Origin: Candidatus Dormiibacterota bacterium | GTDB lineage: Bacteria > Patescibacteriota > Saccharimonadia > Saccharimonadales > UBA4665 | Direction: 5' to 3' | DNA: 38,049 nucleotides | Assembly: GCA_035648575.1 (NCBI GenBank) | Contig: DASRLG010000041.1 | Coordinates: 1-38,049 of the forward strand | In this document: positions 1-16,259 of the stretch, one piece after another | Layout: each line of letters begins with the position of its first letter | Numbering within the stretch: position 1 is the first letter of the stretch | Notes under the pieces: model-generated | Seen by the model: the letters and a program-made list of their open reading frames with translations, nothing else | Told to the model about the DNA's origin: nothing | The model's database searches: none | Position numbers and translations under genes: made by a program

Positions 1-815
1 GTTCTGCCCAATCTAGTCTTAGCCTCATTAAATTTTAAGATGTTATTATCTTGGAAATTCGATATCACCTTGCCGGGCCGATAATTATCAAAACTCGACC
101 ACAGATCCTTGGCCTTACCAGTGACCGCCGTGGCCTTGGCCTGGATCTTGTCCAGCAATTGCTGCGCCAGGTTCCGGTCGGTAGCGGAGGCTGCCGAGTC
201 TTCGCTTTCGGCCGCCAGTGAGTCGATGCCGAGCTTCTCGTCATTGATGCTGGTGGCATTCTCGGCCATCGTGGCGGTGTTACGGGCAAACTGGTAGGCT
301 GCCACATGCTCGGCGAAATCAACCGCTTTGTAGCCGCCAATGATAAGGGCTACCAGGATAATCATGCCTATGACTATGACGTTGCTGCCGATCGCGACGC
401 CGACCAGCCACTTTTTTTTCATAGCGCGGGCCTGGATGTTCTGGGCTTTGGCGCGCGCCCGGCGCAAGGGCGCTAAACGGCCATCGTCATCATCCGGGTT
501 ATAGAGACCATCGCCCTCGCCATCTGAGTCTTTAGGGCTTCTTCTACCAGCCGATTGCTCGGAGTCTCGAAGGCTGCCGGGGCTAGCTGATTTGTCCCTG
601 CCCCTATCACCGCCCTGTCGCCCGCCTTGCCTGCCGTCCTCGCCGGATCCGGCGCCGTCTTCGTCCTCCGGGTTATAAAGGCCGCCCTCTTCGGCGTCGC
701 GCAAATCATCGCGCGGAACACCGCCCTCACCGCCACTATGAACGCCGCCCATATCAGGACGAATATCTGAGCGGTTTGGATCTCCTTCCGGAAGTTGGTC
801 TGGTGGCTCTGCCAT
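1..815 (-). CDS. Membrane-anchored protein, 3' end outside the window (partial); last visible gene of the T4SS-like operon
   Basis: Read by hand. It is absent from the ORF track because there is no stop inside the window. ATG at 815 (MAEPPDQLPEGDPNRSD...) with an in-frame stop just upstream. Acidic Gly/Asp-rich N-terminus with two LYNP[ED]D[ED]DG repeats, then a basic stretch RRARAKAQNIQARAMKKKW. One hydrophobic helix follows (LVGVAIGSNVIVIGMIILVALIIGG), then a polar domain running off the left edge. It starts 36 nt after the virB4-like stop. Confidence 0.6.
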   Translation of the reverse strand, partial: MAEPPDQLPEGDPNRSDIRPDMGGVHSGGEGGVPRDDLRDAEEGGLYNPEDEDGAGSGEDGRQGGRQGGDRGRDKSASPGSLRDSEQSAGRRSPKDSDGEGDGLYNPDDDDGRLAPLRRARAKAQNIQARAMKKKWLVGVAIGSNVIVIGMIILVALIIGGYKAVDFAEHVAAYQFARNTATMAENATSINDEKLGIDSLAAESEDSAASATDRNLAQQLLDKIQAKATAVTGKAKDLWSSFDNYRPGKVISNFQDNNILKFNEAKTRLGR

Positions 816-850
816 GTCTGTTTTGCCCGGCTAAGTCTTACTTATGTTTA

Positions 851-2800
851 TTATACGCTATCACCGCTGCCACTGCCCGGGTACAGCCGATTGCCGAGAT
901 CAATAGTCCCCTGCGGCTGGCTGAAGTCGCCGCCCTCTTCGTTAGCCGCGGCCTCGATGGCCCGCACCTGGTCCGGGTTAGTAGTAATCAGGCCGGTTTC
1001 GGTCGGACTGGCCACGACCTGGATGTGGACGTGGTTCTGTCCGGCGAAGAAAAGGCCCTGTCCGACCGGGAACTGGCTGAGGCGTTTACGCTCCTCGCTG
1101 GTCAGTTTGAAAACATCAGTCAACACGTCGACGGCGGTCGGCGATTGCTTCAGCAGGAACTGCATCGAAGCGTTGGCCACGATGGCCCGGCCCATGCGCG
1201 ACCCCATGAAATCTTCCACGTCTTGGCTGATAGTGGTAATGCCCAGGTTATATTTGCGGGCACGCTTAGCCAGGCTGAACAGGAAGCTGGCTGAATCCTC
1301 GTATTTCATAAGCTGCCAGGCCTCGTCGACGATCAGGATGCGGCGTTTCTGGTCGGTCTTGGTTTTGTTCCAGATGTAGTTGAGCACGATGTACATGGCG
1401 ACCGGCCGCAGCTCGTCTTCCAGGTCGCGCAGGTTGAAAACCACCAAGGGGTTGTTGATATCAACATTACTCTGCTGGGAAAATATCCCGGCGAACGTTC
1501 CGGTAGTGTACTTGCGCAACCGCTGCGCCAGTTGCGGCCCGGTGCCGCCCATGTGCAGCAACGTATCATACAGGTCGACAATCGCCGGCGGCACACCCGT
1601 ATGAGTCAACGGATCATTGGTTATCCCGGCCTTGGCATAAGTCTCGATCAGCGCCGCGTCCAGGTCGGCTTCCTCAGAAGGCGCCAGCGGCGGCCCCATC
1701 GCGGCGGCGTTAGCCCCGGCCATCTGGATCTGGGCGCCGCCCATCATCAGCCTCAGCAGGCCGTGCAGGGTTATAAGGTTGCTCCTCAGGGCGTTGTCGG
1801 CCTCCTCGGAATCAACGACTTTTGGCAGGTCAAACGGGTTGATACGGGTCGAGGAACTCAGGCTGAGCCGCACGTAAGCGCCGCCGACGGCATCGCACAT
1901 CCGCTCGTATTCATTCTCGGGGTCAATGATAAATATTTCAGTACCGAACATCATGCTACGCAAAGCTTCCAGCTTAACCGTGAAGCTCTTACCGGCACCG
2001 GACTTGGCAAAAACCACCGAATTACCGTTTTCCAGAGAGAAACGGTCGAAGATAACCAAACCGGAGTTATGCATGTTGATGCCATACAAAATGCCGGTAT
2101 CCTGACTCAAATCGGCGCTCGTAAACGGAAAGCTGGTACTCAAAGCCCCGGTGCTCATGTTGCGCCGGATCAGCAGCTGGTCGACCAGTTGCGGCACCGT
2201 GCTGTTCAGCCCCTGTTCCTGCTGCGAAGTCGCGGCCTTGCTGTAAACCAGTTGCTGGCCGAGCATCGACTCCACCTTATGGGCAACGAATTCCAGCTCT
2301 TCCATACTGCCGGCGTAGAGCGTGAAATACAGCCCGAACCGGAAGAATCGCTCCTCGCCGACCTGCAGCTTGTCGCGCATTTCTTCGGCGTCCTGGATGG
2401 CCACTTCCTTGCCGGGGTCGCGGACCCGCCCTTTCTCGGCTTCGATCTGGATGCCGGCCTCCAGCTGGGTGACTTTCTTGCGCAGATTCTCCAGCACCAC
2501 CTGGCTCTCGACAGGATAAATATACATGCTCGTATCAATGACCTCGTCGAGGTTAATCATGCTGCTCAGCCAACCGGTATAAAGCTGCCGAGGGTAGCCA
2601 TAAACGTAGTAAGTCCGAGCGTAGCGCGTGCCAAGCTGGAAGTGCGTGTTGCTGAACTCCAGCGAGCTGGGAGCTACGAAATCGCGCAGCGCCGTGATGC
2701 CTTTTTGGAATGCCGCCTGGACTTCCTGCTCTTCGCGGGCGCGCTGGGCCTGGGCCACGGCCACGGGATCCATTGGCGGCTGTTTCTTCCTGCCAAGCAT
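851..2800 (-). CDS. virB4: VirB4/TrbE-family type IV secretion ATPase
   Basis: 649-aa ORF with ATG start. Walker A FAKSGAGKS and Walker B-like RRILIVDEAW are present. The N-terminal block YARTYYVYGYPRQLYTGWL...IDTSMYIYP is typical of Gram-positive-type VirB4 proteins. Antisense ORFs on the plus strand are low-complexity. Confidence 0.9.
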   Translation of the reverse strand: MLGRKKQPPMDPVAVAQAQRAREEQEVQAAFQKGITALRDFVAPSSLEFSNTHFQLGTRYARTYYVYGYPRQLYTGWLSSMINLDEVIDTSMYIYPVESQVVLENLRKKVTQLEAGIQIEAEKGRVRDPGKEVAIQDAEEMRDKLQVGEERFFRFGLYFTLYAGSMEELEFVAHKVESMLGQQLVYSKAATSQQEQGLNSTVPQLVDQLLIRRNMSTGALSTSFPFTSADLSQDTGILYGINMHNSGLVIFDRFSLENGNSVVFAKSGAGKSFTVKLEALRSMMFGTEIFIIDPENEYERMCDAVGGAYVRLSLSSSTRINPFDLPKVVDSEEADNALRSNLITLHGLLRLMMGGAQIQMAGANAAAMGPPLAPSEEADLDAALIETYAKAGITNDPLTHTGVPPAIVDLYDTLLHMGGTGPQLAQRLRKYTTGTFAGIFSQQSNVDINNPLVVFNLRDLEDELRPVAMYIVLNYIWNKTKTDQKRRILIVDEAWQLMKYEDSASFLFSLAKRARKYNLGITTISQDVEDFMGSRMGRAIVANASMQFLLKQSPTAVDVLTDVFKLTSEERKRLSQFPVGQGLFFAGQNHVHIQVVASPTETGLITTNPDQVRAIEAAANEEGGDFSQPQGTIDLGNRLYPGSGSGDSV

Positions 2801-2837
2801 GATCAGCTACTGCCCCCGTTTATCCACCCGAGCCGTC

Positions 2838-3785
2838 TCATTGCAATTCCCTCTGCAAGTGCGCCTGCGGCGCGTTGCCCTCGCCCTTGGTAATGATATC
2901 GGCCGTCAAGTTATTGAAATCCTTAAGCTGCTGCCGGGTGGCGGTATCCGGATTATAGGTATCGTAGTACAGCTCGATCAGTTCCTGGGTATCAAGCGGC
3001 AACCCCTGGATGCTGCACTGCATCAGGCCTGACAAAACTGCCTGCACCCGGTTGCGCAGCTCGGTCTTGGCGTTTTCCAGGTCCGGCTCGTTGATGACGA
3101 CATGCTGGTCTTTTTTGTTAAATAAACCGCCTATGCCCCCCAGGAAGTTTTTGCTCTGGGTCAGTGCCTTTTGGGTATCAACAACCGGGAAAAACGGAAC
3201 CACGACGTAGAATTTTTTATCCATGATGTTAGTCTGCTGGCTAAGGTCACCGATATAGCTGATGTAGTCTTCCATGAGCAGCGCCAACAGCATGTTGTCG
3301 TGCTCGGTACGGATCTTGTCGAGTTTGTTGATGTAAGGCACCAGATCAACTTTCTGCGAGCGCATGAAGATCTGAATCGGAAAATAAAGCGAGTTCAGGA
3401 ACCCCTGGTAGCTATATTCGACAGCTTCCTGCTCCTGGCTGCTCATCAGGTCGAAGTTAATACTTTTGACCATAACTACCGAACGGAAAGAGCCGTCGTT
3501 CATGATAACGATACCGTCGCGAACCTCGGCGATTTGCAAGGAGTTCTGGGTGCTGTTGGGGTGCGGGGCTGGCTTGGGGGCCTTGTCCGCGCCGACCGTA
3601 GGCATATTGAGAGGTGCCGCCGCGTTGGCGCCACCGGGTGCCGTTACGGGGGCGATTGATTGACCTGGTATCAGAGGTGATGGCAAAGGGACGGCATTCG
3701 TCATGTCCGGTACGGGAACAGGAACGGCCGCGGCCGGCTGAGAGGGATTAGGCTGGTTTGGTGTCGTTTGTGTTGACGGATCCAT
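2838..3785 (-). CDS. T4SS-associated protein with a Pro-rich N-terminus and a VirB4-N-terminal-domain-like body, no P-loop
   Basis: ORF 2838..3821; the track start at 3821 is TTG and the first ATG is at 3785 (MDPSTQTT...). The body IAEVRDGIVIMNDGSFRSVVMVKSINFDLMSSQEQEAVEYSYQGFLNSLYFPIQIFMRSQKVDL resembles N-terminal non-ATPase domains of VirB4/TraC-type proteins as I recall them. No Walker A motif is seen. Confidence 0.7.
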   Translation of the reverse strand: MDPSTQTTPNQPNPSQPAAAVPVPVPDMTNAVPLPSPLIPGQSIAPVTAPGGANAAAPLNMPTVGADKAPKPAPHPNSTQNSLQIAEVRDGIVIMNDGSFRSVVMVKSINFDLMSSQEQEAVEYSYQGFLNSLYFPIQIFMRSQKVDLVPYINKLDKIRTEHDNMLLALLMEDYISYIGDLSQQTNIMDKKFYVVVPFFPVVDTQKALTQSKNFLGGIGGLFNKKDQHVVINEPDLENAKTELRNRVQAVLSGLMQCSIQGLPLDTQELIELYYDTYNPDTATRQQLKDFNNLTADIITKGEGNAPQAHLQRELQ

Positions 3786-3843
3786 GGTACGTTCGTTTGC
3801 CCCACCTTTATCTGTGATCAAGTATCACTCTTGCAATAACGAA

Positions 3844-5007
3844 TCAGTGTAATGAAATCATGACCTCGTTGCGCGGCTGGTTTTCGTCACCCCTGTTTTT
3901 GCGGGCCTCGCGAGCCAAAGTCGCCACATCGAAATCATCGTTCTTGGCCAAGGATAGTATAGCAGGATCACTGGTCGCTGTCACCGTATCGTTACTGGCA
4001 GCCGCCGCTGTTTGAGGGTTCGTACCGTCGCTTGGAGCCGGCATCGGAATGTCGGCTGGCGGCGCGGCCGGTTGGCTCCCCAGAGGCTGCAAGGTGCGCA
4101 AATTACCAAACGACACCTGCCGCGAACTGGCCTGCGCCGACAAGCGGGCCGCCAACGCGGCTTCATCCGGTGTTGTCTCACCGGCCACCGGCGCCGGAAT
4201 CGTCGCGCTGGTGACCATCGGTTCCGGTGGGCGCGCCATGGCCGCGGCACCCGTCCCGGCTGGCATTGCCATGGCTGGCGCGGCTGCTGCCTGCCCGTTA
4301 TTCATGAACCAGCTGTCACTTGCCGCTGCCGGCTGCTTAGCCTTAGCCGCCTCGTCCTGCCGGACATCATTAAGCTGGTCGAGCAATTGCTGCCGGCGGT
4401 TCCGGCTGGAACGGTCGATCATAGTATCAAACTGCTGGGCAATAGGGTTATTGGTCTCGTCAAGCATGTCGTCAGCCGCCGGCATATCGTCAGCGGGTAC
4501 GTCCTGGGGCATGCTGCTGATATCGATTAAACGGTCGGAGTTCATGTCGGCTACCACCGGGGAATAAACGCCGCTGCTGGCGTTTTTGGTCGCCCAACCG
4601 CGGCTGTCGATAGTATCGGCCAACGCCCGCAAGCGACTTGTGACTTCCGTCTGGCTAAGCCCGTTGGTCAGTACCCGCTCGACTTTTTTAGGCACGGTTA
4701 TGGTTACCAGTTCCTTAACGCCGCTCTGGTTCCAGATCCGCTGCCGCGGCTTAAACCAGAACCTTAACTTAGCCAACGCCCAGGTCTCCGTCGGCTGGTC
4801 CCGCCCGAACGGAAAGGCAAAAAACGCGCAGAACAACGCCGGCGGCAAAAACAGCACCAGCAAAAACGCGGCGTTCTTAGTCACCAAAATAAAACATATA
4901 TAGAACAGGAACACGGCCACCAAGGCGAAAATAAACTGCCTCAACGTCAACGGCCCCAGGATTTTGTCCTCGGCCTCGATATCCTGAATCAGTTTGTATG
5001 TTGCCAC
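3844..5007 (-). CDS. PrgI/TcpE/VirB3-like small-membrane-domain T4SS protein with a long disordered Ala/Pro-rich C-terminus
   Basis: The N-terminus YKLIQDIEAEDKILGPLTLRQFIFALVAVFLFYICFILV...LLVLFLPPALFCAFFAF has the LT.RQ motif followed by two TM helices, as in the PrgI family. It lies immediately upstream of the VirB4-type genes. Confidence 0.65.
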   Translation of the reverse strand: MATYKLIQDIEAEDKILGPLTLRQFIFALVAVFLFYICFILVTKNAAFLLVLFLPPALFCAFFAFPFGRDQPTETWALAKLRFWFKPRQRIWNQSGVKELVTITVPKKVERVLTNGLSQTEVTSRLRALADTIDSRGWATKNASSGVYSPVVADMNSDRLIDISSMPQDVPADDMPAADDMLDETNNPIAQQFDTMIDRSSRNRRQQLLDQLNDVRQDEAAKAKQPAAASDSWFMNNGQAAAAPAMAMPAGTGAAAMARPPEPMVTSATIPAPVAGETTPDEAALAARLSAQASSRQVSFGNLRTLQPLGSQPAAPPADIPMPAPSDGTNPQTAAAASNDTVTATSDPAILSLAKNDDFDVATLAREARKNRGDENQPRNEVMISLH

Positions 5008-5051
5008 AATACCTTAAGTATAACAAACCACAACCGGATAAGGCACAGGTC

Positions 5052-6812
5052 TTACGGGCCTGTCGAACGAGCACGCTGGAGGTTCAGGCCGATGGCCACG
5101 AAGTCCTTCTTACCAAGCTGGTGTCCTGGCGTACCGGCAGTAACGGTTTGCAGGATATCCACGATCTCTTTCTTAGCAAAATCCGGTACGTTTAGGGCGT
5201 TGAAAGCGTCCCAATCAAACGAGTATGTATCCGGTGTCTCCTGAACGATGTCATTGCCCTTTTTATCATGGCCCAGGATCTTTCCACCGGGTTTAGTGAT
5301 CACCAGCACCGTATCAGCTGTTCGGCGACCGAGCAGGTCGTTAACAATCATAGCTTGAACACGCCGTGCTTCCACATGGTCATTGTCGAAAGGATTACCG
5401 ACTTTGACACCGAAATCATCATATCGCTGGAAATCATCGGCCAATTCACTAGGGTGCTTAGCTAAGTAGCGCTGTTCTGCTAATTGCCAAAGTATCAGGC
5501 CGAGGCTCGCGTCTTCTACATCCTGCCTAAGGCCAAAGCCCTTCAAAGCCTCGGTGTATTCGTAGGTCATACGGCTAGCCATGTCAATTACGGCGGTTTT
5601 GCCTAACTCGGCAACCATTTCCTGTAAGGATGCCACGTACTTTTCCAGGAATTGTTCGCCCTGGAGCCTGATCCGGTCGGCAACTACCTGATGGTCCCTG
5701 TAAATATCGTCGAGCGTGAATATATCCTCATAAGCCAGGAGAGCAACAGCCTCTTCCCTAGACAGTGAATTTTCAGTGGGGTCATGTTCCTCGCCGACAG
5801 TGTCCGGTCCGGCGGTCCAGCCTTCACGGCCCGGGGCCGGTGCCAGCATGAAGCTGGTACTGACCCGGCCGATGCTTGATAACACGGCTGGGTCAGGCTG
5901 TTCATCTGGCATTTCCAGGTGCAGGTCGCTCAACGCCTTGCCCATAGTATTAAGGTGCTTCTTCAGGCCGTCATCCCTATAGACGCGCTGGTGAGTGGCA
6001 TCGCCAGCGGCATTGTAGGTCTTGACTACGAAAGTTCGCACCGGGTGCTTATCGCCTTCAGGGCCTTCCATCAGTAGGACTTCTTCGGTCACGCGCTGGA
6101 CGCTGCCGTTAACTTTCCACGTAACGCCTTTCAGACCCAGGCCCAATCGTTCCTGGTGTTCCATGACAGTATCGAAGACTGACTTGTCGGGGTCGACACG
6201 TTCGATAGGCCTTACGTTGGGGTTGTTCCGTCTAATCCGTTCCGGAGCGTCCTGCCAACCGAAATCGGTGAACCACTCAAAGGGCGTGAATTCGTCACTC
6301 GGATGGTCAAGCCAGCCTGCCAGCGCGTCATCTTCATAACCTATAACGTCAGCCAACTCTCCATCTGGAGGAGTTACTTTGACTGTCCAGCGCCGTCCCG
6401 TGCCAGGTGTTAGAACGGTTTCCTTTTGCTCTGCGCGGCCTACGTAAGGGCCACCTCTTAATGTACTTCTAGCTCGGGGGCGCCACTTACCGGTCGGCTT
6501 GTCTTCCCTATTCGTTACGTGGTAGGCATCGTAATCGGTAAATTCATATAATTGGCCGTTGCGGTCGCGTAGCCAGAAGCCCCTTAGGTCAGGCCGGTTG
6601 TGGGCTTCGCCGTTCTCCATGACCTGTTCGGAGATTAATCTCAAGGGGTCAAATTCCCGGCGCAGCATCGAGGGCCCTATTTCCATACCCATGGTCGCGG
6701 TGGCCGGTGCTGCGGCACCGAGCTCCACTGTCGGAGGCAGGCCAACAGGTACGACTGCCGTGGTCGGGTCGGCGGCTGGTTCTGGTCGGAGTGCTAGTTC
6801 TTCTGAGGCCAT
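5052..6812 (-). CDS. Hypothetical soluble acidic protein (586 aa) embedded in the T4SS-like operon
   Basis: Long ORF with ATG start and natural amino-acid composition. I recognise no signal peptide, TM segment, P-loop or HExxH motif. It is preceded by a 156-bp AT-rich spacer carrying a consensus promoter. Confidence 0.8.
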   Translation of the reverse strand: MASEELALRPEPAADPTTAVVPVGLPPTVELGAAAPATATMGMEIGPSMLRREFDPLRLISEQVMENGEAHNRPDLRGFWLRDRNGQLYEFTDYDAYHVTNREDKPTGKWRPRARSTLRGGPYVGRAEQKETVLTPGTGRRWTVKVTPPDGELADVIGYEDDALAGWLDHPSDEFTPFEWFTDFGWQDAPERIRRNNPNVRPIERVDPDKSVFDTVMEHQERLGLGLKGVTWKVNGSVQRVTEEVLLMEGPEGDKHPVRTFVVKTYNAAGDATHQRVYRDDGLKKHLNTMGKALSDLHLEMPDEQPDPAVLSSIGRVSTSFMLAPAPGREGWTAGPDTVGEEHDPTENSLSREEAVALLAYEDIFTLDDIYRDHQVVADRIRLQGEQFLEKYVASLQEMVAELGKTAVIDMASRMTYEYTEALKGFGLRQDVEDASLGLILWQLAEQRYLAKHPSELADDFQRYDDFGVKVGNPFDNDHVEARRVQAMIVNDLLGRRTADTVLVITKPGGKILGHDKKGNDIVQETPDTYSFDWDAFNALNVPDFAKKEIVDILQTVTAGTPGHQLGKKDFVAIGLNLQRARSTGP

Positions 6813-6846
6813 GATAAGAGTTTTTGTTTATTTGTTATCAATATAG

Positions 6847-6875
6847 ATTATAGCTGATAATTCTAATATTGTCAA
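6847..6875 (-). promoter_or_regulatory. Sigma-70-type promoter, perfect consensus TTGACA-17-TATAAT (minus strand)
   Basis: The minus strand reads TTGACA (complement of 6870-6875), a 17-nt spacer, then TATAAT (complement of 6847-6852). It lies 34 nt upstream of the ATG at 6812. Confidence 0.55.
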
Positions 6876-6968
6876 CTATGTAGCTTGATAATTAAACAGG
6901 AGAGAAGAAGAACAGGTAGTTTATTCCGTGGGAGTGTCGAATTCGATAACTTATAGGTTTAGTTAGGT

Positions 6969-9900
6969 TTAGTGATTACGGGCGGCTTCGTCGGCGGCTT
7001 TCTGCGCTTCCGCGGCATCTTGCTGCTGCCTGGCCTGTTCGCGCGGGTCGTAATCTCTTGGTTTAGGCAGGGGTACGCCTTCTTTGCGGAGCTCTTCGGA
7101 CATGTCGCTCCATTCGGCCTTGGCGCCAGTGTCGTTGTAGCCGTAAGGACCGGCCTGGTTGACGATAAGGTCCTGCATGGCGCGGGCTGCGCCGGTGTAG
7201 TTGCCTTGATCGTCTTTCTCTCTGGCGATATCCATGTTGGTGAGACGGGCCGACTGTACGGCTTCGGCCTTGGCACCGGTCCAGTCGGAGGCCTTGATGC
7301 TCATAGCGTTGGACCTCGCGGCTCCCTTGCGCTTCTGGCGCTGGGCCGCGGTTAGATTAGAATTGTCGTCAAAGACAGAGTAGAACTTGCCCTTGGTGCC
7401 GGTGGCCGATCCGTCTTTGTCCACCATGACGCCATGTCCCCACCTGGTTTCCGGCCGCAGGCGGGCGCCGGCGTCGGAAGCTTTCTTGACGACGCTCTGG
7501 GCGTAGGAGGCGCCGCCGCCCTTGCCCTTGCGCGCGGTTATGGAGTTGCCGATTTCCGCCAGGTCCTGTTGTTCGGCGCGGCCGGCGTTGGCTAGGCCGA
7601 GGGCACCCATCGTCTGGACGTCGGCCCGGAACAGCTCGGGGTTGTTGCTTATATTGGCCAGGGTACCGCGAGCGGTGTGAAGGCCGGCGGCGGCCAGTTG
7701 CTCTTTTTCCCTGCCGCTGCTGCCGAGGATCTCGGTTATCTTATCGATGTCTTTCAGGGACCTTGGCGCTCTTGATACGCCTGTCTCTCTGTCTATGAAG
7801 CCTTCGTCCATAAGTTGCTTCTGGGTCTCCTCGCTGAAGCCGCGGTATGAACCGGATAACGCGCGCCAGCCTTCGTAATGCATGCCGCCCTTGGATTCTA
7901 TTTCTTGCCAGCCCTTGGTGCTGTGGTCGATCATGGCGTCGTCGATTTTGTTTTCTATGCCGGCCGCGAAACGCTTGAAGCCGGGCGTGCCCTTTTGGCC
8001 AAGCTTGCCCGGAACCATTTCGTCGGCGTCGAAGGCCCATTCAGCCAGCCGGCTGCCCATTCGGCCGACACTCCTGCCATTCTTGCCGAAGCGGCCGAAC
8101 TCGGGGTTCCAAAGGTAGCCGGCGCGGGCGCGCTGGACGCGGCCGGCAGTGTGCTCTTTGCGCTTCTTGCTCAGGTAGCCATAACCGCCTTGGGCGCGGC
8201 TATTGACCAGGTTGGCCATACCGCCCAGCGCCCCGCCGGCAAACTTGAAAGTCATAGGAATCATTAAATAGGGCGCGAAGTAGGCGATGAAGCCGATTAT
8301 TTGGCTCAGTATGTCGGAACTCTGGTTGACGGCGATAGCCGAAAATACGCGGCCAATGGCTATGAAGCCGGCGATCAGGGGGAACATGAACAAGGCTTTG
8401 CTGAAATTTTCCCACCAGAACTTAAAAGCCCTTTGGAAATAAGGATTAGGCAATATGTAAGCGGCAATCCCTAGGGGCGACAGTATGGTCAGGCCAATGA
8501 CGACGAGAGCTCTCAAGATCAGTGTCGCGAAGCCGACTACAACCGCCAGGGCGGCCATACCGACGAAAGTCAATAAGCCGAACACCCCCATGGCAACCCC
8601 GACGATCGAGGGGATTAGTACCGCGGCGCTTTGGGAGAGGCTAAGGTGGATGCTGGTATTGATACCGATGAAGGGCGCTTCTATCAGGCGCCTTATGCCA
8701 AACCCCAGGTCGTTTGTAAGCGTTATGAAAAACCTCATTAACTGCCAGGACATAGCTATAGCAATCGATGCTATCAGAAGTCGCGGCAGGACTTTACGAA
8801 TAGTATAAGCGTCCAGCATTTCCAGGCCCAAAGCCTGGGCTATCAGGACTAATATGGTTGCCAGTGCTATCAGGCCGAGTGCTATATCCCGGAAATACCC
8901 CCAAGCCGTATGGTAAGCGTCACATTGGCCGCCGGTACCGCAAGAGCCGTCAGGATTGGCAAAGATCTGGTCGGGATTATCAGAATTACCGTTGGTACCC
9001 ACCGACAATTCGCTGTTAATCGCGCCGTCCAGGGCGCTGACTATGCCTACGAGTCCCTTTACGATGCCGCAGACCAGCCAATTAAGCGGGTTAAGCCCGG
9101 CATGACAGTTTAATGACAGGTCTTGGCTAGAGCTGCCGCCCCCGCCACCGCCAACACCGCTACTGCCTGCCGCCTCGTCACTGGCCAGCTTGCCGTCGGC
9201 ACCTTTGGTGTCAGCCAGTTGAATCAGTATGCCGTCGCTCTCATAACAACCCTGCCCGTCACTATGGAGCGAAGCGCCGGTAATAATGGACGGGAAGCCG
9301 GTTGATAAGGGGTTGTCGCTTGAACTGTTCTTTATGACCAGCGTCCCGCTGGTGGGCCAGCCCGAAGCGCCGCTAATTTGGCTTTGGCAGGTTTTGTTAT
9401 AGCTTCTGCCTTTGGCAGCCATATAGGGGCCGCTGCCAGCGGTGTTTTGCGTAAAGACAATAGCCGTCTGGTCCGAAGTACTTATAGTGCCGCTATCCTG
9501 CCAGACGAAGTAATAATTGAATCCGGCCGGGTCGGAATTAGGACTCAGGGTTATTGGATCATCGGTTTCTACGCAATTATTATTGCCGCCGCCCGGCGTG
9601 GTGAATAGATGGATAGTAGCCGAAGCCGTAGCGTTTTGGTAATTGGAGCCGTCGGAGTTAGGGAAGCCGTTTATATAGTTCTTCGCCGAGCAGCTATCGC
9701 TGGAGTTTTGAAGCACGAAGCTCAGGTTATTGTCTTCCTTATTATCATAATAAACGCTACTGCCGACGCTGATGTGGCTATGGTCGATCCACTGGCCTAT
9801 CTGGGGGGACTGCTTGCCGGTTATGGTTATAGAGCCGTAATCTTTTGAGATCCCGCCGATATCGCTGCCGCAATCCGACTTTATGTCCGCGCTGGAGGAG

Positions 9901-10202
9901 CCGTCTTGGCCGTCACTCGTGAAGATGTATATGTCCGGGCAAAGGTTGCCGTTAGGTCCGTTGGTACCGTTACCGCTGAAATACACGCCCGTCGGATACT
10001 TCTTGAGGTCCACCCCGTTTTTGGTGAAGGTCAGGGTACTGTTTTGGTCGGCCGGGTCGGGGCCGACAACCGATTTGTTGCCGTTCGTGTAACGGTAAGT
10101 TCCATTGTCGGCTGAAGTTTTGCCGGGCAGCAGTGACAAGAACAGGACCATCACCAAGGGCAGAGCCATCCACCATATTTTTTTGCCGCTTAAATATTTC
10201 AT
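6969..10202 (-). CDS. VirB6/TrbL-like polytopic T4SS channel protein with a large extracellular N-domain and a large cytoplasmic C-domain (1077 aa)
   Basis: Signal peptide MKYLSGKKIWWMALPLVMVLFLSLLPGKTSA. About 400 aa of Ser/Gly/Asn/Asp-rich sequence with scattered Cys and a poly-Gly linker follows. Then come multiple TM helices (LIALATILVLIAQALG, LLIASIAIAMSWQLMRFFITL, AAVLIPSIVGVAMGVFGLLTFVGMAALAVVVGFATLIL and others). The C-terminus is a roughly 430-aa charged tail. Confidence 0.7.
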   Translation of the reverse strand: MKYLSGKKIWWMALPLVMVLFLSLLPGKTSADNGTYRYTNGNKSVVGPDPADQNSTLTFTKNGVDLKKYPTGVYFSGNGTNGPNGNLCPDIYIFTSDGQDGSSSADIKSDCGSDIGGISKDYGSITITGKQSPQIGQWIDHSHISVGSSVYYDNKEDNNLSFVLQNSSDSCSAKNYINGFPNSDGSNYQNATASATIHLFTTPGGGNNNCVETDDPITLSPNSDPAGFNYYFVWQDSGTISTSDQTAIVFTQNTAGSGPYMAAKGRSYNKTCQSQISGASGWPTSGTLVIKNSSSDNPLSTGFPSIITGASLHSDGQGCYESDGILIQLADTKGADGKLASDEAAGSSGVGGGGGGSSSQDLSLNCHAGLNPLNWLVCGIVKGLVGIVSALDGAINSELSVGTNGNSDNPDQIFANPDGSCGTGGQCDAYHTAWGYFRDIALGLIALATILVLIAQALGLEMLDAYTIRKVLPRLLIASIAIAMSWQLMRFFITLTNDLGFGIRRLIEAPFIGINTSIHLSLSQSAAVLIPSIVGVAMGVFGLLTFVGMAALAVVVGFATLILRALVVIGLTILSPLGIAAYILPNPYFQRAFKFWWENFSKALFMFPLIAGFIAIGRVFSAIAVNQSSDILSQIIGFIAYFAPYLMIPMTFKFAGGALGGMANLVNSRAQGGYGYLSKKRKEHTAGRVQRARAGYLWNPEFGRFGKNGRSVGRMGSRLAEWAFDADEMVPGKLGQKGTPGFKRFAAGIENKIDDAMIDHSTKGWQEIESKGGMHYEGWRALSGSYRGFSEETQKQLMDEGFIDRETGVSRAPRSLKDIDKITEILGSSGREKEQLAAAGLHTARGTLANISNNPELFRADVQTMGALGLANAGRAEQQDLAEIGNSITARKGKGGGASYAQSVVKKASDAGARLRPETRWGHGVMVDKDGSATGTKGKFYSVFDDNSNLTAAQRQKRKGAARSNAMSIKASDWTGAKAEAVQSARLTNMDIAREKDDQGNYTGAARAMQDLIVNQAGPYGYNDTGAKAEWSDMSEELRKEGVPLPKPRDYDPREQARQQQDAAEAQKAADEAARNH

Positions 10203-10352
10203 AGTCTAGCGGGGAGCAGCTCTATGTATTTTTGTAAACCACCGGGAACGTTTTTGTAGTCAGGCATAGTACGCTTGAAGTTATATTGCTTTAAATATAG
10301 CACATATAAAGGATTAGCGTTATCAAGAAGCCTGCCCATCCCTATCGCATGC

Positions 10353-10381
10353 TTGTCAATAGGTAACTTAAGCACTATAGT
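10353..10381 (+). promoter_or_regulatory. Candidate promoter TTGTCA-17-TATAGT for the pilin array
   Basis: TTGTCA at 10353-10358, a 17-nt spacer, TATAGT at 10376-10381. The ATG at 10391 is only 9 nt downstream and no SD is visible. Confidence 0.4.
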
Positions 10382-10390
10382 TATATAAAA

Positions 10391-11191
10391 ATGAACATTA
10401 CAACACACAAAGCTAAAAAGATAACTAAGAGGATCAGCCGATTTCTGTTCTGTTTCCTGACGGCGGCATTTGTTTTAGCGCCATCGGTAGCCTTGGCCGC
10501 GTCACAGGTTTACGGCATAGCCTGTGCCACCAGCGATGTTAAGGTCAGTAAACATTCAGCGGACTGTTCGGCCGCAGCAGATACCTTAAGACTGTATGAG
10601 ATAGGAAACAAAAGCCCACGCAAGCCCTATCCCACAGGCTATGGCATAACCGTGGTAACGGTAGACTGCGGTAAAAGCAGTCCGACTACACCCCTGTTAA
10701 ACGGGCCGGTTAAGTTTGCCTGCAAGAAATCATCAATAAAACCCACGCTCAAAGGCGCCACCATAATCCAACATGCCGCCGCGGTATCAGGCTCGGGCAG
10801 CCTGGGCGGCCAGGTTACCTGTGATCCGACGACCGATGCCACCTGCCCGGTCTGCCAAAGCAGCAACCCGCCGGCCGGTTGTGTCGATTGCGGCAGCGGT
10901 ACCTGTTCGGACCCCGCGGCTAACCCCAATACTCCTTGCGACACTAACGGCTGCGATTTAATCGGCAAGTATATCGACCCGTTCATTAATTTGTTCTCGG
11001 TGACTTTCGGTTTTATAGCCGTAGCCTCTATTATTATGGGAGGGATACAATACGCGTCCTCGACTGGCGACCCGCAAAAAGTCACGGCGGCCAAACAACG
11101 AATTACCAATACTCTGATTGCCCTGGTAGCTTACTTCTTCCTTTATGGTTTCCTGCAATTCCTGATACCGGGGGGAGCATTTAACGGATGA
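10391..11191 (+). CDS. VirB2/TrbC-like T4SS pilin paralog 1 with a long Cys-rich N-terminal extension (266 aa)
   Basis: N-terminal signal/TM segment. About 14 Cys lie in the mature region. The C-terminal pilin module is FGFIAVASIIMGGIQYASSTGDPQKVTAAKQRITNTLIALVAYFFLYGF, i.e. two TM helices flanking a G..Y.S.GD loop. Confidence 0.8.
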   Translation: MNITTHKAKKITKRISRFLFCFLTAAFVLAPSVALAASQVYGIACATSDVKVSKHSADCSAAADTLRLYEIGNKSPRKPYPTGYGITVVTVDCGKSSPTTPLLNGPVKFACKKSSIKPTLKGATIIQHAAAVSGSGSLGGQVTCDPTTDATCPVCQSSNPPAGCVDCGSGTCSDPAANPNTPCDTNGCDLIGKYIDPFINLFSVTFGFIAVASIIMGGIQYASSTGDPQKVTAAKQRITNTLIALVAYFFLYGFLQFLIPGGAFNG

Positions 11192-11198
11192 AAAACCT

Positions 11199-11585
11199 AT
11201 GTTAAGCGCACTACTATCAATAATGGCGACCGACACCTGTGACAAGTCAGGTGATTTCTTCGGCCTGCGTCCCTGGTATCATTATCTGCCGTCAACAGAC
11301 TTCTCGGGTTGCGATCTGAGTAACTTCACCTTCCTGCCAAGCTCTACCCAGGCCAGCGACGTGCCGCTGGTAATGTTGGCCGTTATCGATGACCTGTTGC
11401 GCATAGCCGGGATCGTGGCCGTGGCTTTTGTCGTCGTGGGCGCCGTCAGGTATATAACCAGCCAGGGCAATCCCGAACAGACAGCCCAGGCCCAATCAAC
11501 CGTCATTAACGCTTTAATAGGTACGGCCATCGCCGTCGCGGCCGCCACTTTCGTCGGCTTTGTCGGCAGTCGGTTGGGGGGCTAA
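11199..11585 (+). CDS. VirB2/TrbC-like T4SS pilin paralog 2
   Basis: C-terminal module IAGIVAVAFVVVGAVRYITSQGNPEQTAQAQSTVINALIGTAIAVAAATF. Upstream CDKSGDFFGLRPWYHYL...GCD region with a Cys pair. Starts 8 nt after paralog 1. Confidence 0.8.
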   Translation: MLSALLSIMATDTCDKSGDFFGLRPWYHYLPSTDFSGCDLSNFTFLPSSTQASDVPLVMLAVIDDLLRIAGIVAVAFVVVGAVRYITSQGNPEQTAQAQSTVINALIGTAIAVAAATFVGFVGSRLGG

Positions 11586-11586
11586 T

Positions 11587-11901
11587 ATGAATATGATATT
11601 GCGAATTTTGGCAGAGTCGATAAGCCCTGGTAACCTGCCTGGCGCGCCGACACCGGCGAACCCCACTCCTAACAGCCTGACCAGCGTGGCTGCTTTGCAA
11701 ACTATCCTGGGCGTGGTGTTTGGTATAATCGGTGCCCTAGCGTTGTTGATCATAACGGTATCCGGACTTCGCTATATAACCTCGGCCGGTGACCCGGAGA
11801 AAACGACCAGGGCCAGAAATGGCATCATCTACGCGCTCGTAGGATTGATTTTGGCCATATCGGCTGAAGCGATAGTAGCCTTCGGAGTCAAAAGATTATG
11901 A
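11587..11901 (+). CDS. VirB2/TrbC-like T4SS pilin paralog 3
   Basis: The track ORF starts at 11560, but the in-frame ATG at 11587 (MNMILRIL...) begins 2 nt after the previous stop. Module VFGIIGALALLIITVSGLRYITSAGDPEKTTRARNGIIYALVGLILAISAEAIV. Confidence 0.75.
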   Translation: MNMILRILAESISPGNLPGAPTPANPTPNSLTSVAALQTILGVVFGIIGALALLIITVSGLRYITSAGDPEKTTRARNGIIYALVGLILAISAEAIVAFGVKRL

Positions 11902-12329
11902 TAAAAAGACTGCTTATGGCCGTAGCCCTGCTTGTCCTGTGCCTGTTCGCGACTCCGCGCGTAGCCTCGGCTTACGATATTTTCGGCGGCGTGGACTGCA
12001 CAAGCGCTACGAATTCAAGCTCCGCGGTCTGTAAAGGCCAGCCGGCCACCGACCCGACTACCGGCAAAGCTGCCGACCCCATAGGCGGCCCCAACGGCCT
12101 GCTGGCCAAGATCACGAATATCGTGGCTTACGCCGGCGGTGCCGCCGCAGTTATCATAGTGATTGTCAGCGCCTTGCGCTTCGTTACTTCCGGCAGTGAT
12201 GTCAGTACCAATTCCCGCACCGACGCCGATGTCGAAAACGCCCGGCGCAGCCTTGGCGGCGCCTTAATCGGCCTAGCCATCATAGTCCTGGCCCGCGCGT
12301 TCATATTATTTGTATTGAATAAAGTGTGA
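11898..12329 (+). CDS. VirB2/TrbC-like T4SS pilin paralog 4
   Basis: ATGA 4-nt overlap with paralog 3. Signal peptide MIKRLLMAVALLVLCLFATPRVASA and a Cys pair. Module AAAVIIVIVSALRFVTSGSDVSTNSRTDADVENARRSLGGALIGLAIIVLA. Confidence 0.8.
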   Translation: MIKRLLMAVALLVLCLFATPRVASAYDIFGGVDCTSATNSSSAVCKGQPATDPTTGKAADPIGGPNGLLAKITNIVAYAGGAAAVIIVIVSALRFVTSGSDVSTNSRTDADVENARRSLGGALIGLAIIVLARAFILFVLNKV

Positions 12330-12339
12330 AGGAGAAACC

Positions 12340-12786: not shown

Positions 12787-12812
12787 CCCTAACCGATAAG
12801 ATGAAAGGCGAC

Positions 12813-12841
12813 TTGATTCCGCTAACGCCTTGTAGTATAAG
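12813..12841 (+). promoter_or_regulatory. Candidate internal promoter TTGATT-17-TATAAG ahead of pilin paralog 6
   Basis: TTGATT at 12813-12818, a 17-nt spacer, TATAAG at 12836-12841, inside the 86-nt gap between paralogs 5 and 6. Confidence 0.35.
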
Positions 12842-12872
12842 TTAAGTAGACGTAAAGAAAGGTATACATAAC

Positions 12873-13337: not shown

Positions 13338-13381
13338 TAAACCCGCGTACGTTTAGTAATTCTGAGACTTTCAGGTACATG

Positions 13382-13410: not shown

Positions 13411-13426
13411 CGTAACCAGGCCCTGT

Positions 13427-16256: not shown

Positions 16257-16259
16257 TCT

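What the first reader, a model, noticed from the sequence alone, without database searches (positions are those of the whole stretch)
1..10202. Type IV secretion-like operon with VirB4, PrgI-like and VirB6-like genes but no coupling protein, relaxase or integrase in view
The minus-strand block encodes VirB4 with intact Walker A and B motifs, a PrgI/VirB3-like protein, a VirB6-like channel protein and three proteins of unknown role. It faces the pilin array across a 188-bp AT-rich spacer.

Within the 38 kb I see no VirD4/TraG-type second P-loop ATPase, no relaxase, no oriT-like repeat, no integrase and no att duplication. Housekeeping genes follow directly. This argues for a chromosomal, non-conjugative use of the machine, such as effector delivery, DNA uptake or host attachment, rather than an integrative conjugative element. 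The operon continues past the left edge, so missing parts could lie there.
Basis: partly seen in the sequence, partly recalled or inferred. Interest (0 to 1): 0.6.

Follow-up and report, generated by a model that had tools for sequence, protein, structure and literature searches.

The report
Known Saccharibacteria type IV secretion locus
This is the chromosomal type IV secretion machine that ultrasmall Saccharibacteria keep next to their replication origin and need in order to grow on host bacteria; it is real and not a mobile element, but it has already been published.

Summary
Window 1-10202 (minus strand) encodes VirB4 with intact Walker A and B motifs, a TrsD-like protein, PrgI/VirB3, a 586-aa soluble protein and an extended VirB6/TrbL-like protein. 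It faces six VirB2-like pilin genes across a 188-bp AT-rich spacer.

The organism is a Saccharimonadales bacterium (Saccharibacteria/TM7, Patescibacteria). In relatives with 98%-identical VirB4, the operon continues left with a ~1140-aa membrane protein, a multidomain peptidoglycan hydrolase and a small Ig-like protein. It then meets recF-dnaN-dnaA. No coupling protein, relaxase or integrase lies there.

The layout is conserved: recF follows VirB4 in 59 of 59 species with enough flank. The locus matches SEML1_0007-0022 of Southlakia epibionticum gene for gene. That system is essential for epibiotic growth by Tn-seq (Wang 2023). Its lack of relaxase and adjacent coupling protein, and its place near dnaA, are also published (McLean 2020; Quinonero-Coronel 2025).

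One side observation may be new. The position between virB6 and prgI, held here by the 586-aa gene, is hypervariable. It tends to hold soluble proteins with basic C-terminal tails, which are candidate substrates.

The parts
1..815 (-). N-terminal 271 aa of a large membrane protein that runs off the left edge. It has an acidic, Gly-rich and probably disordered N-terminus, and one TM helix at about residue 135. It is the positional orthologue of SEML1_0007.
   Evidence: Translation and TM prediction. It is 77% identical to the N-terminus of the 1138-aa protein of L001. SEML1_0007 has a C-terminal Hedgehog/DD-peptidase fold in Wang 2023 Table S2. That C-terminus lies outside the window.
851..2800 (-). 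VirB4 ATPase of the MPF-FATA / CD1110 type, 649 aa. It lacks the canonical N-terminal ~180 residues.
   Evidence: Median identity is 86% across 83 related loci.
2838..3821 (-). TrsD-like protein, equivalent to the split-off N-terminal domain of VirB4. It is 327 aa from the TTG start. The real start is probably the ATG at 3785, giving 315 aa as in relatives.
   Evidence: NCBIfam TrsD 9.2e-07. It also matches the N-terminal positions of two VirB4 models: VirB4_plasma 102-233 and CD1110 2-72. Orthologues carry a precomputed PF26593 TraC-like hit. It is 30% identical (2e-28) to the gene upstream of virB4 in Pontibacillus.
3844..5007 (-). PrgI/VirB3-like protein with two N-terminal TM helices and a long Ala/Pro-rich C-terminal extension.
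   Evidence: PF12666 2.9e-11; TM helices at residues 16 and 35.
5052..6812 (-). 586-aa soluble protein with no signal peptide and no TM helix. It is an accessory gene in a hypervariable slot between virB6 and prgI. Its function is unknown; it is a candidate substrate or accessory factor.
   Evidence: - No Pfam or NCBIfam hit.
- Only 35 hits among 1.84 billion representative proteins.
- A 38%-identical relative also sits directly upstream of prgI.
- AF2 model pLDDT 72, with no significant fold match.
- Slot analysis.
6847..6875 (-). Perfect sigma-70 consensus, TTGACA-17-TATAAT, in the 156-bp, 70% AT gap upstream of the 586-aa gene.
   Evidence: 12 of 12 matches; sequence read. This is a consensus match only; function was not shown.
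6969..10202 (-). Extended VirB6/TrbL-like protein of 1077 aa. It has a signal peptide, a beta-rich Cys-containing ectodomain (~36-331), a Gly-rich linker, a polytopic core (~374-690) and a helical cytoplasmic domain (~712-1075).
   Evidence: Precomputed PF19590 hit; AF2 model; Foldseek top hits are TrwI/VirB6. Only the core is conserved, with invariant residues between 272 and 585.
10203..10390 (.). 188-bp AT-rich divergent intergenic region between virB6-like and the first pilin gene. It holds promoter-like sites on both strands.
   Evidence: 61.7% AT. Plus-strand site TTGTCA-17-TATAGT at 10353-10381; minus-strand site at 10403-10374.
10391..13337 (+). Array of six divergent VirB2-like pilin genes: 10391-11191, 11199-11585, 11587-11901, 11898-12329, 12340-12786 and 12873-13337. 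It belongs to the same system.
   Evidence: PF18895 T4SS_pilin in all six; five reach the curated cut-off and the fourth is just below it at 24.2 against 26.6 bits. Two of them match NCBIfam Mbov_0395 pilin-like at 35.8-35.9 bits, against a cut-off of 40. Each has two C-terminal TM helices. Pilin hits occur in 48 of 50 loci with enough upstream flank.

Best explanation
This is the core, origin-proximal type IV secretion system of Saccharimonadales (Saccharibacteria/TM7). It is the orthologue of SEML1_0004-0019 of Southlakia epibionticum and is not a mobile element.

Shown here:
- The locus descends from monoderm (MPF-FATA) conjugation machinery.
- It keeps only the channel and engine parts:
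  - a VirB4 ATPase whose N-terminal domain is encoded separately (TrsD-like);
  - PrgI/VirB3;
  - an extended VirB6/TrbL-like polytopic protein.
- In close relatives, large cell-wall hydrolases are encoded just past the left edge.
- Six VirB2-like pilins are transcribed divergently.
- No relaxase, coupling protein or integrase lies in or next to the locus.

Inferred mechanism:
- VirB4 alone powers assembly of a pilus or tube from the pilins, through a PrgI/VirB6 membrane platform.
- The adjacent hydrolases open the wall, either the cell's own or the host's.
- The structure contacts the host bacterium and moves macromolecules between epibiont and host, without conjugative DNA processing.

My split for the cargo or role:
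- protein (effector or hydrolase) export into or onto the host: about 45%;
- uptake of host macromolecules or nutrients: about 25%;
- contact or adhesion only: about 20%;
- DNA transfer: under 10%.
For: Identity and taxonomy
- More than 8000 VirB4 hits were found. The top 120 are 89-100% identical and, where named, are almost all labelled Saccharimonadales, Saccharibacteria or Patescibacteria.
- The best 80 GTDB species loci are almost all labelled the same way, at 83-90% identity; one is labelled Dormiibacterota and a few carry no lineage.

Components
- Supported.

Left extension and origin context
- VirB4 is followed by a 1138-aa protein, then a hydrolase with 3D, beta-lactamase-like and CHAP domains, then a Big_5 protein, then recF, dnaN and dnaA.
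- recF follows in 59 of 59 loci.
- No conjugation or integration families occur among 74 downstream ORFs from 20 species.

Match to S. epibionticum
- Gene order matches one to one, including Hsp20, ComFC and tRNA-Ser on the pilin side.

Published function
- SEML1_0006-0019, including the pilins, are essential for epibiotic growth by Tn-seq, and no coupling protein or relaxase was recognised (PMC10633639).
- Patescibacterial VirB4 forms a monophyletic clade nested in MPF-FATA. Relaxases are rare, and the locus sits near dnaA (PMC12102498).
- Cryo-EM tubular structures at a parasite-host interface, described as possible T4SS pili, were seen in another member of the phylum (bioRxiv 10.64898/2026.06.21.733656).

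Conservation gradient consistent with a host-facing machine
- VirB4 86%, TrsD-like 71%, PrgI 46%, pilins about 45%.
- VirB6 31%, over its core only; the ectodomains cannot be aligned.

Comparison with a conjugative relative
- The Embleya plasmid (VirB4 39% identical) has a T4CP and a replication-relaxation family protein directly after VirB4. The Saccharimonadales locus has hydrolases at that position.
Against: - The cargo and the direction of transport are unknown. Nothing computed here distinguishes export from import.
- The VirB6 assignment rests on a precomputed Pfam hit and non-significant Foldseek E-values (0.11-0.43). The local hmmscan was negative.
- The hydrolases and the recF-dnaN-dnaA context were seen in relatives, not in the window's own genome, whose contig ends at VirB4 + 815 nt.
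- A VirD4-like gene may exist elsewhere in this genome (PMC12102498), so T4CP-independent operation is not proven.
- No VirB8-like component was identified.
- Essentiality was shown only in one cultivated species.
Confidence: 0.85

Rival explanations
1. The block is the transfer module of an integrative conjugative element or degenerate plasmid, and the DNA-processing genes lie outside the window.
For: VirB4 belongs to a conjugation-derived family: conju_CD1110, above cut-off. The closest plasmid homologues are 35-39% identical. tRNA genes lie 3-8 kb beyond the pilin array.
Against: - Relatives show hydrolases and then recF-dnaN-dnaA to the left.
- No T4CP, relaxase or integrase domains occur in 74 downstream ORFs of 20 species, or in the window.
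- No flanking repeats were found.
- There is no DNA match to any plasmid.
- Synteny is fixed across the 83 related loci examined, taken from at least 592 species with a VirB4 relative, and VirB4 is 83-97% identical among them.
Confidence: 0.02
2. The machine is a DNA-uptake (competence) T4SS, like ComB of Helicobacter or the archaeal Ced system, and feeds DNA to ComFC/ComEC.
For: A ComFC/GntX-type gene (14047-14748) lies 0.7 kb beyond the pilin array. The same adjacency occurs in S. epibionticum and TM7x. VirB4 gives weak hits to the CedB and CedD models.
Against: - The CedB hit is 50.8 bits against a cut-off of 700 and covers only the ATPase core.
- In S. epibionticum, competence depends on type IV pili and ComEC.
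- A comEC deletion in that species is viable, while the T4SS is essential. ComFC (SEML1_0021) is non-essential (PMC10633639; PMC12857230).
Confidence: 0.07
3. It is a Ptl-like toxin exporter. The six small Sec-signal proteins would be secreted effector subunits rather than pilins (the McLean 2020 proposal).
For: The system has no adjacent T4CP, like Ptl, and it has an adjacent array of small signal-peptide proteins.
Against: - All six proteins hit the T4SS_pilin family; five reach the cut-off and the fourth falls just short.
- All six have the two-TM hairpin typical of VirB2.
- Identity to pertussis toxin S1 was 11% in the original paper.
- The later literature treats them as pilins.
Confidence: 0.05
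4. It is an import conduit. The pilus or tube taps the host cell so that host macromolecules (RNA, nucleotides, lipids) can be acquired by an epibiont that cannot make them.
For: [quoted passage not shown]
- A 2026 preprint reports host RNA acquisition and possible T4SS pili at the interface.
- An endonuclease/exonuclease/phosphatase-family domain occurs in 4 of 74 ORFs next to virB4.
Against: No characterised T4SS imports RNA or lipids. No receptor or nuclease is conserved across the loci. No direct evidence links the T4SS to uptake.
Confidence: 0.25

Closest known systems
Southlakia epibionticum ML1 T4SS (SEML1_0004-0019; Wang et al. 2023, PMC10633639)
   Same: Gene order is the same on both sides: recF side, hydrolases, large DD-peptidase protein, VirB4, ~300-aa TrsD-like protein, PrgI, VirB6/TrbL-like protein, then six divergent pilins, Hsp20, ComFC and tRNA-Ser. 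No relaxase or adjacent T4CP.
   Different: Between prgI and virB6, ML1 has SEML1_0011 (998 aa, essential) and SEML1_0012 (278 aa, NTF2-like, non-essential). This window has one unrelated 586-aa soluble protein with its own consensus promoter. The ectodomains and hydrolase domain sets also differ.
Patescibacteria-clade T4SS as surveyed by Quinonero-Coronel et al. 2025 (PMC12102498), and the TM7x locus (McLean 2020, PMC7427843)
   Same: A VirB4 clade nested in MPF-FATA; TrsD, PrgI and VirB6 next to virB4; VirB2 arrays of 2-11 genes; relaxase absent; T4CP not adjacent; proximity to dnaA/dnaN.
   Different: Nothing essential differs. This is one more member of the class Saccharimonadia.
Monoderm conjugative T4SS (MPF-FATA: pCF10 Prg, pGO1 Trs, C. 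difficile CTn CD1110 type); example Embleya sp. plasmid NZ_CP108778
   Same: VirB4 is 39% identical. PrgI sits upstream of VirB4, a polytopic VirB6-like protein is present, and an NlpC/P60 hydrolase is nearby.
   Different: The Embleya cluster has a T4CP and a replication-relaxation family protein directly after VirB4, and no pilin-like gene was detected by BLASTP. The window's locus has neither DNA-processing gene, has six pilins, and sits at the chromosomal origin.
Pontibacillus sp. ALD_SL1 megaplasmid cluster (NZ_CP062975, 351-361 kb)
   Same: The cluster is colinear: two pilin-like genes (E down to 4.5e-13), a 779-aa polytopic protein, a 116-aa two-TM protein, a TrsD-like protein (30% identity, 2e-28), VirB4 (36%) and a 1050-aa peptidoglycan endopeptidase. 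No T4CP or relaxase is annotated within 12 kb on either side.
   Different: It belongs to a free-living Bacillota species and lies on a non-mobilizable 898-kb replicon next to flagellar genes. It has two pilins, not six. Its function is unknown.
Bordetella pertussis Ptl and Brucella VirB (T4SSs that work without a coupling protein)
   Same: They show that a T4SS can secrete without a T4CP (PMC12857230).
   Different: They are diderm MPF-T systems with a VirB7/9/10 outer-membrane core and VirB11. Nothing links them to this locus beyond the shared VirB4, VirB6 and VirB2 families.

Membership tests
Patescibacteria/Saccharimonadia chromosomal T4SS (S. epibionticum type) | VirB4 ATPase of the MPF-FATA lineage with intact Walker motifs | tested here: met
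   conju_CD1110 scores 350.8 bits against a cut-off of 325. Walker A and B motifs are present. 4AG5 match at 3.5e-48. 89-100% identical to Saccharimonadales VirB4 proteins.
Patescibacteria/Saccharimonadia chromosomal T4SS (S. epibionticum type) | TrsD-like gene and PrgI/VirB3 gene immediately upstream of virB4 | tested here: met
   TrsD 9.2e-07, plus matches to the N-terminal positions of VirB4 models. PrgI PF12666 2.9e-11. Present in 82 and 80 of 83 loci respectively.
Patescibacteria/Saccharimonadia chromosomal T4SS (S. epibionticum type) | Large VirB6/TrbL-like polytopic protein | tested here: met
   Precomputed PF19590 hit for this exact protein. About 8 TM helices. Foldseek top hits are TrwI/VirB6 at probability 0.84-0.89 but E = 0.11-0.43. 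Local hmmscan was negative. Support is moderate.
Patescibacteria/Saccharimonadia chromosomal T4SS (S. epibionticum type) | Divergently transcribed array of VirB2-like pilins | tested here: met
   Six genes hit PF18895, five at or above the cut-off. Found in 48 of 50 loci.
Patescibacteria/Saccharimonadia chromosomal T4SS (S. epibionticum type) | Cell-wall hydrolases downstream of virB4, then recF-dnaN-dnaA | tested here: met
   Met in relatives only, because the window ends 815 nt past virB4. Seen in L001, L002 and L086 at 98% VirB4 identity. recF follows in 59 of 59 loci. Hydrolase domain census.
Patescibacteria/Saccharimonadia chromosomal T4SS (S. epibionticum type) | Essential for epibiotic growth on a host bacterium | not testable with these tools
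   Shown by Tn-seq only for S. epibionticum ML1.
Integrative conjugative element / conjugative plasmid | Relaxase and type IV coupling protein linked to the mating-pair genes | tested here: not met
   None in the window. None in the left extension of relatives. None in 74 downstream ORFs of 20 species.
Integrative conjugative element / conjugative plasmid | Integrase, flanking att repeats and patchy distribution | tested here: not met
   No integrase family hit. No flanking direct repeats of 16 nt or more that bracket the locus. Synteny is fixed next to the replication genes. No plasmid DNA match.
Ptl-type toxin secretion system | Adjacent Sec-dependent toxin subunits and a VirB7/9/10 outer-membrane core | tested here: not met
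   The array proteins are T4SS pilins by Pfam. No VirB7, VirB9, VirB10 or VirB11 families were hit in the window.
DNA-import T4SS (archaeal Ced / Helicobacter ComB) | CedA/CedB-type or ComB-type components | tested here: not met
   CedB 50.8 bits against 700 and CedD 22.4 bits against 600; only the ATPase core matches.

The most novel reading that the evidence does not exclude
The position between virB6 and prgI may be a cargo slot for lineage-specific, T4CP-independent substrates of the Saccharibacteria T4SS. Here it holds the 586-aa gene with its own consensus promoter.

- Across 58 species the slot is empty in 25. In the other 33 it holds 1-5 ORFs, 47 in all, which fall into 42 BLAST-unrelated groups. 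Nearly all are soluble and lack a signal peptide.
- I looked at the co-oriented gene directly upstream of prgI in 26 species. In 62% of them the last 25 residues carry a net charge of +3 or more, against 6.9% of 890 other ORFs from the same loci.
- For a net charge of +5 or more the figures are 38% against 1.2% (Fisher p = 1.4e-11).
- When the slot is empty, the VirB6 tail in that position is not basic (mean charge -0.28). The bias is therefore not a property of the DNA upstream of prgI.
- From my own knowledge, basic C-terminal tails are the known translocation signal of VirB/D4 substrates.
- The 586-aa family ends in a conserved ...G(R/K)LLRR... motif.

If this reading is true, these would be the first candidate effectors of this essential machine.
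Probability: 0.2. Interest if true: 0.6.

Novelty: already known. Interest (0 to 1): 0.3.

Why it matters
The system itself matters. It is the first T4SS reported to be essential for the growth of the bacterium that carries it. It is conserved across a huge uncultivated radiation, and its cargo is still unknown.

This window adds only another orthologue. Its value is confirmatory, in three ways:

- The locus is fixed next to recF-dnaN across the 83 related loci examined.
- The cytoplasmic engine is conserved at 71-86% identity, while every surface-exposed part diverges beyond alignment.
- The hydrolase set is reshuffled between species.

If the side observation of a hypervariable slot holding soluble proteins with basic tails holds up, it would give experimentalists concrete candidate substrates to test in the cultivable strains.

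Tried and rejected
- Exact-sequence lookup of the window's VirB4 found no contig. I extended leftward through relatives with 98-99% identical VirB4 instead. L084 (99%) ends inside the large downstream gene.
- Local Pfam and NCBIfam scans of the VirB6-like, 586-aa and 1138-aa proteins gave nothing, even at E = 10. The VirB6 call therefore rests on precomputed hits and the fold search.
- PDB sequence searches with the 1138-aa protein and with the 586-aa family profile gave nothing credible.
- The Foldseek search of the 586-aa model gave no significant match. TcpC (3UB1, VirB8-like NTF2 fold) ranked 2-3 at probability about 0.1. I do not claim a VirB8-like fold.
- By eye I saw a LAS-type motif (HxxGxAxD ... 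HxH) at the C-terminus of the L001 1138-aa protein. My scans did not confirm it. It agrees with the published Hedgehog/DD-peptidase fold call for SEML1_0007 and with VanY hits in two orthologous positions.
- No Rfam families other than four tRNAs were found in the window.
- No att-like repeats were found.
I rely on PMC12102498 for that point.

Full report
**What is in the window**

On the minus strand:
- 1-815 is the N-terminal 271 aa of a membrane protein that runs off the left edge.
- 851-2800 is VirB4. It hits Pfam P-loop_TraG, AAA_10 and DUF87. NCBIfam conju_CD1110 scores 350.8 bits, above the 325 cut-off. Walker A is AKSGAGKS and Walker B is ILIVDE. The match to the solved VirB4 C-terminal domain 4AG5 is 3.5e-48.
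- 2838-3821 is a TrsD-like protein. It also aligns to the N-terminal positions of two VirB4 models. The VirB4 gene itself covers only positions 179-733 of the 752-position CD1110 model. VirB4 is therefore effectively split into two genes.
- 3844-5007 is PrgI/VirB3 (PF12666, 2.9e-11).
- 5052-6812 is a 586-aa soluble protein with no family match.
- 6969-10202 is a 1077-aa protein with a signal peptide, a beta-rich ectodomain, about eight membrane helices and a helical C-terminal domain.

The VirB6/TrbL assignment for the 1077-aa protein has three supports:
- It has a precomputed PF19590 hit, as do 68 of its 70 listed homologues.
- R388 TrwI/VirB6 chains are the top Foldseek hits, at probability 0.84-0.89. 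Their E-values are only 0.11-0.43.
- The local hmmscan reported nothing.

I call this support moderate.

The 188-bp spacer (10203-10390) is 61.7% AT, against 45.4% for the whole window. It separates this block from six PF18895 pilin genes.

Among ORFs of 150 aa or more, the P-loop motif occurs only in VirB4 and, by chance, in the PGI gene. No relaxase, coupling-protein or integrase family is hit anywhere in the 38 kb. No direct repeats bracket the locus. The rest of the window is housekeeping: Hsp20, ComFC, BrkB, ValRS, TsaD, GroES/EL, PGI, four tRNAs and the start of what looks by eye like an argH gene.

**Whose genome, and what lies to the left**

VirB4 has more than 8000 database relatives. 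The top 120 are 89-100% identical. Where they are named, almost all come from Candidatus Saccharimonadales, Saccharibacteria or the Patescibacteria group.

Contigs carrying VirB4 proteins 98% identical to the window's (L001, L002, L086) continue past VirB4 in this order:
- a 1138-1144-aa membrane protein, whose N-terminus is the window's truncated ORF;
- an 855-859-aa hydrolase with 3D, beta-lactamase-like and CHAP domains and a weak SLT hit;
- a ~225-aa Ig-like (Big_5) protein;
- then, on the opposite strand, recF, dnaN, a small ORF and dnaA.

A 95%-identical relative on a 326-kb contig shows the same layout with a different hydrolase (GH3 + phage lysozyme + C39-like).

It is not met in any relative examined.

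**Distribution and synteny**

A scan of one genome per GTDB species returned at least 592 species with a VirB4 relative. The best 80 are almost all labelled Saccharimonadales, Saccharibacteria or Patescibacteria, at 83-90% identity.

I ran tblastn with the window's proteins against the 83 loci then held. The order Hsp20 - pilins - VirB6 - (slot) - PrgI - TrsD - VirB4 - (5-9 kb) - recF - dnaN is fixed. All 59 loci with at least 9 kb downstream contain recF, 4.7-8.7 kb after VirB4. Pilins occur in 48 of 50 loci with at least 9 kb upstream.

The interval between VirB4 and recF always holds the same pattern: a ~800-1700-aa protein, then a ~400-1000-aa protein, then one or two smaller ones, nearly always co-oriented with virB4.

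A Pfam census of 74 such ORFs from 20 species found these families:

| Family | ORFs |
|---|---|
| Phage_lysozyme2 | 13 |
| NlpC/P60 | 4 |
| Exo_endo_phos | 4 |
| CHAP | 3 |
| PEGA | 3 |
| Amidase_3 | 2 |
| VanY | 2 |

Single hits included M23, SLT_2, glucosaminidase and GH3. No conjugative DNA-processing or integration family appeared.

There is no nucleotide match to any of 72,556 plasmids.

The locus is therefore a core, origin-proximal chromosomal feature and not an ICE.

**Conservation gradient**

Median identities across the same loci are:

| Protein | Median identity |
|---|---|
| VirB4 | 86% |
| Hsp20 | 79% |
| TrsD-like | 71% |
| DnaN | 71% |
| RecF | 58% |
| PrgI | 46% |
| Pilins | 33-45% |
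| VirB6 (membrane core only) | 31% |

The 586-aa protein is detectable in only two loci. VirB4 is thus more conserved than the replication clamp in the same genomes. One caveat applies: the loci were chosen by VirB4 similarity.

In the VirB6 alignment, all invariant residues lie between 272 and 585. The ectodomain and the C-terminal domain are not conserved. A conserved engine with fast-evolving exposed parts fits a machine that faces a host surface. This is an inference.

**Comparison with the literature**

The locus is already described.
- McLean et al. 2020 (PMC7427843) reported VirB4, VirB6 and 'PrgI' together with a 4-6-gene Sec-signal array and a GntX/ComF neighbour in TM7x and most Saccharibacteria.
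- Wang et al. 2023 (PMC10633639) showed by Tn-seq that SEML1_0006-0019 of Southlakia epibionticum, including the pilins, are essential for epibiotic growth. They noted the lack of recognisable coupling and relaxase proteins.
- Their supplementary tables give this order: dnaA, dnaN, recF, 0004, 0005 (PEGA), 0006 (lysozyme), 0007 (1113 aa, C-terminal DD-peptidase fold), 0008 (VirB4), 0009, 0010 (PrgI), 0011, 0012 (NTF2-like, non-essential), 0013 (TrbL/VirB6), 0014-0019 (pilins), 0020 (Hsp20), 0021 (ComFC, non-essential), tRNA-Ser.
- The window matches that order gene for gene, except between prgI and virB6.
- Quinonero-Coronel et al. 2025 (PMC12102498) surveyed 3,035 genomes. They found a monophyletic VirB4 clade nested in MPF-FATA; TrsD, PrgI and VirB6 next to virB4; VirB2 arrays of 2-11 genes; relaxases in only 103 genomes; T4CP homologues mostly far from virB4; and proximity to dnaA and dnaN.
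- A 2025 FEMS review repeats these points.

**Closest systems outside the radiation**

A tblastn search of VirB4 against plasmids gives monoderm hits at 29-39% identity.
- The Embleya plasmid cluster runs: polytopic protein, PrgI (fused to a TrsD-like region), XF1762, VirB4, T4CP, replication-relaxation family protein, NlpC/P60. This is the conjugative arrangement. It shows what is missing here.
- A Pontibacillus megaplasmid carries a colinear cluster that lacks an annotated T4CP or relaxase within 12 kb. It has two pilin-like genes, a 779-aa polytopic protein, a 116-aa two-TM protein, a TrsD-like protein (30% identity, 2e-28), VirB4 (36%) and a 1050-aa peptidoglycan endopeptidase.
- The window's pilins also nearly reach the NCBIfam model for Mycoplasma ICE pilin-like proteins (35.9 bits against a cut-off of 40).

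VirB2-like pilins are therefore not unique to Patescibacteria among monoderm-type systems.

**Mechanism**

The following parts are shown: an ATPase, its split N-terminal domain, a VirB3-like and a VirB6-like membrane component, pilins, neighbouring wall hydrolases, and no DNA-processing genes.

I infer the following. VirB4 alone drives pilin extraction and polymerisation through the PrgI/VirB6 platform. The hydrolases breach peptidoglycan. The filament bridges to the host cell and passes macromolecules.

Published data argue against DNA uptake as the essential role. A comEC deletion is viable and ComFC is non-essential. Whether cargo is exported or imported cannot be decided here. A 2026 preprint reports host RNA acquisition and possible T4SS pili at the interface in another member of the phylum.

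**A variable slot between virB6 and prgI**

The 586-aa gene sits in a 2-kb interval that is not conserved.
- Among 58 species loci, the gap between VirB6 and PrgI is under 150 bp in 25. In the other 33 it holds 1-5 ORFs of varied size and orientation, 47 in all.
- These 47 ORFs fall into 42 BLAST-unrelated groups.
- Almost all lack TM helices and signal peptides. A few are plainly metabolic genes by their sequence, read by eye and not searched.
- The 586-aa family has only 35 relatives among 1.84 billion representative proteins. One relative, at 38% identity, also sits directly upstream of prgI.
- In the window the gene is preceded by a 156-bp, 70% AT gap with a perfect TTGACA-17-TATAAT match.
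- Its AF2 model (pLDDT 72) has no significant structural neighbour.

The co-oriented gene immediately upstream of prgI is strongly enriched for basic C-terminal tails:

| Net charge of last 25 residues | Slot genes (26 species) | Other ORFs of the same loci (890) |
|---|---|---|
| +3 or more | 62% | 6.9% |
| +5 or more | 38% | 1.2% |

The Fisher test on the second row gives p = 1.4e-11.

When the slot is empty, the VirB6 C-terminus in the same position is not basic (mean -0.28). The 586-aa family ends in a conserved G(R/K)LLRR motif.

This was a post-hoc test. The proteins could instead be one hyperdivergent accessory subunit. I record them as candidate substrates at about 20% probability.

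**Verdict**

The system is already known, and the window adds an orthologue. Interest is low to moderate. It rests mainly on the unresolved cargo question and on the slot observation.

Noticed in passing
window 5008-6968; compare L001-L083 between the VirB6 and PrgI genes: The interval between virB6 and prgI is hypervariable. It is empty in 25 of 58 species. Elsewhere it holds 1-5 mostly soluble, mutually unrelated ORFs. The co-oriented gene next to prgI is strongly enriched for basic C-terminal tails: 38% have a net charge of +5 or more in the last 25 aa, against 1.2% of background ORFs.
   Followed up: partly
window 6847-6875 (-): A perfect 12/12 sigma-70 consensus (TTGACA-17-TATAAT) lies in a 70% AT gap upstream of the 586-aa gene. 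This suggests an internal promoter for the p586-prgI-trsD-virB4 unit in this strain. In species with an empty slot, virB6 and prgI are only 0-150 bp apart.
   Followed up: partly
window 10353-10391 (+): The promoter-like -10 element (TATAGT) ends 9 nt before the ATG of the first pilin gene. That mRNA would be leaderless or nearly so, or the true start codon lies further downstream.
   Followed up: no
L089 (Pontibacillus sp. ALD_SL1 megaplasmid NZ_CP062975) 6000-17100: A Bacillota megaplasmid carries a colinear cluster: pilin-like x2, polytopic protein, two-TM protein, TrsD-like, VirB4, large peptidoglycan endopeptidase. No T4CP or relaxase is annotated within 12 kb, and the cluster lies next to flagellar genes. 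This may be a non-CPR counterpart of the pilin-bearing, relaxase-less architecture.
   Followed up: partly
L003-L081, interval between virB4 and recF: The hydrolase genes after virB4 are modular and reshuffled between species. Domains seen include phage-tail lysozyme, NlpC/P60, CHAP, amidase_2/3, VanY, M23, SLT, GH3 and glucosaminidase. Four of 74 ORFs carry an endonuclease/exonuclease/phosphatase domain, and one carries an alginate lyase domain.
   Followed up: partly
window 13427-16474: Hsp20, a ComFC/GntX-type competence gene and tRNA-Ser follow the pilin array, in the same order as SEML1_0020-0022 of S. epibionticum. A 487-aa polytopic membrane protein (14793-16256) with no family match is inserted here. 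It has no tblastn hit in any of the 83 loci.
   Followed up: partly
window 19382-25030: A block flanked by tRNA-Arg and tRNA-Ser genes encodes proteins of 433 aa and 448 aa with no family match. It also encodes a 963-aa GDSL-lipase-domain protein. It was not examined further.
   Followed up: no
window 12557-12726 and 13135-13304: The C-terminal pilin-domain regions of the fifth and sixth pilin genes are 71% identical at the DNA level over 170 nt. This points to a relatively recent tandem duplication within the array.
   Followed up: no
window 25734-26582 (+): A single ORF fuses an N-terminal Cro/C1-type HTH domain to a HAD-family hydrolase domain.
   Followed up: no
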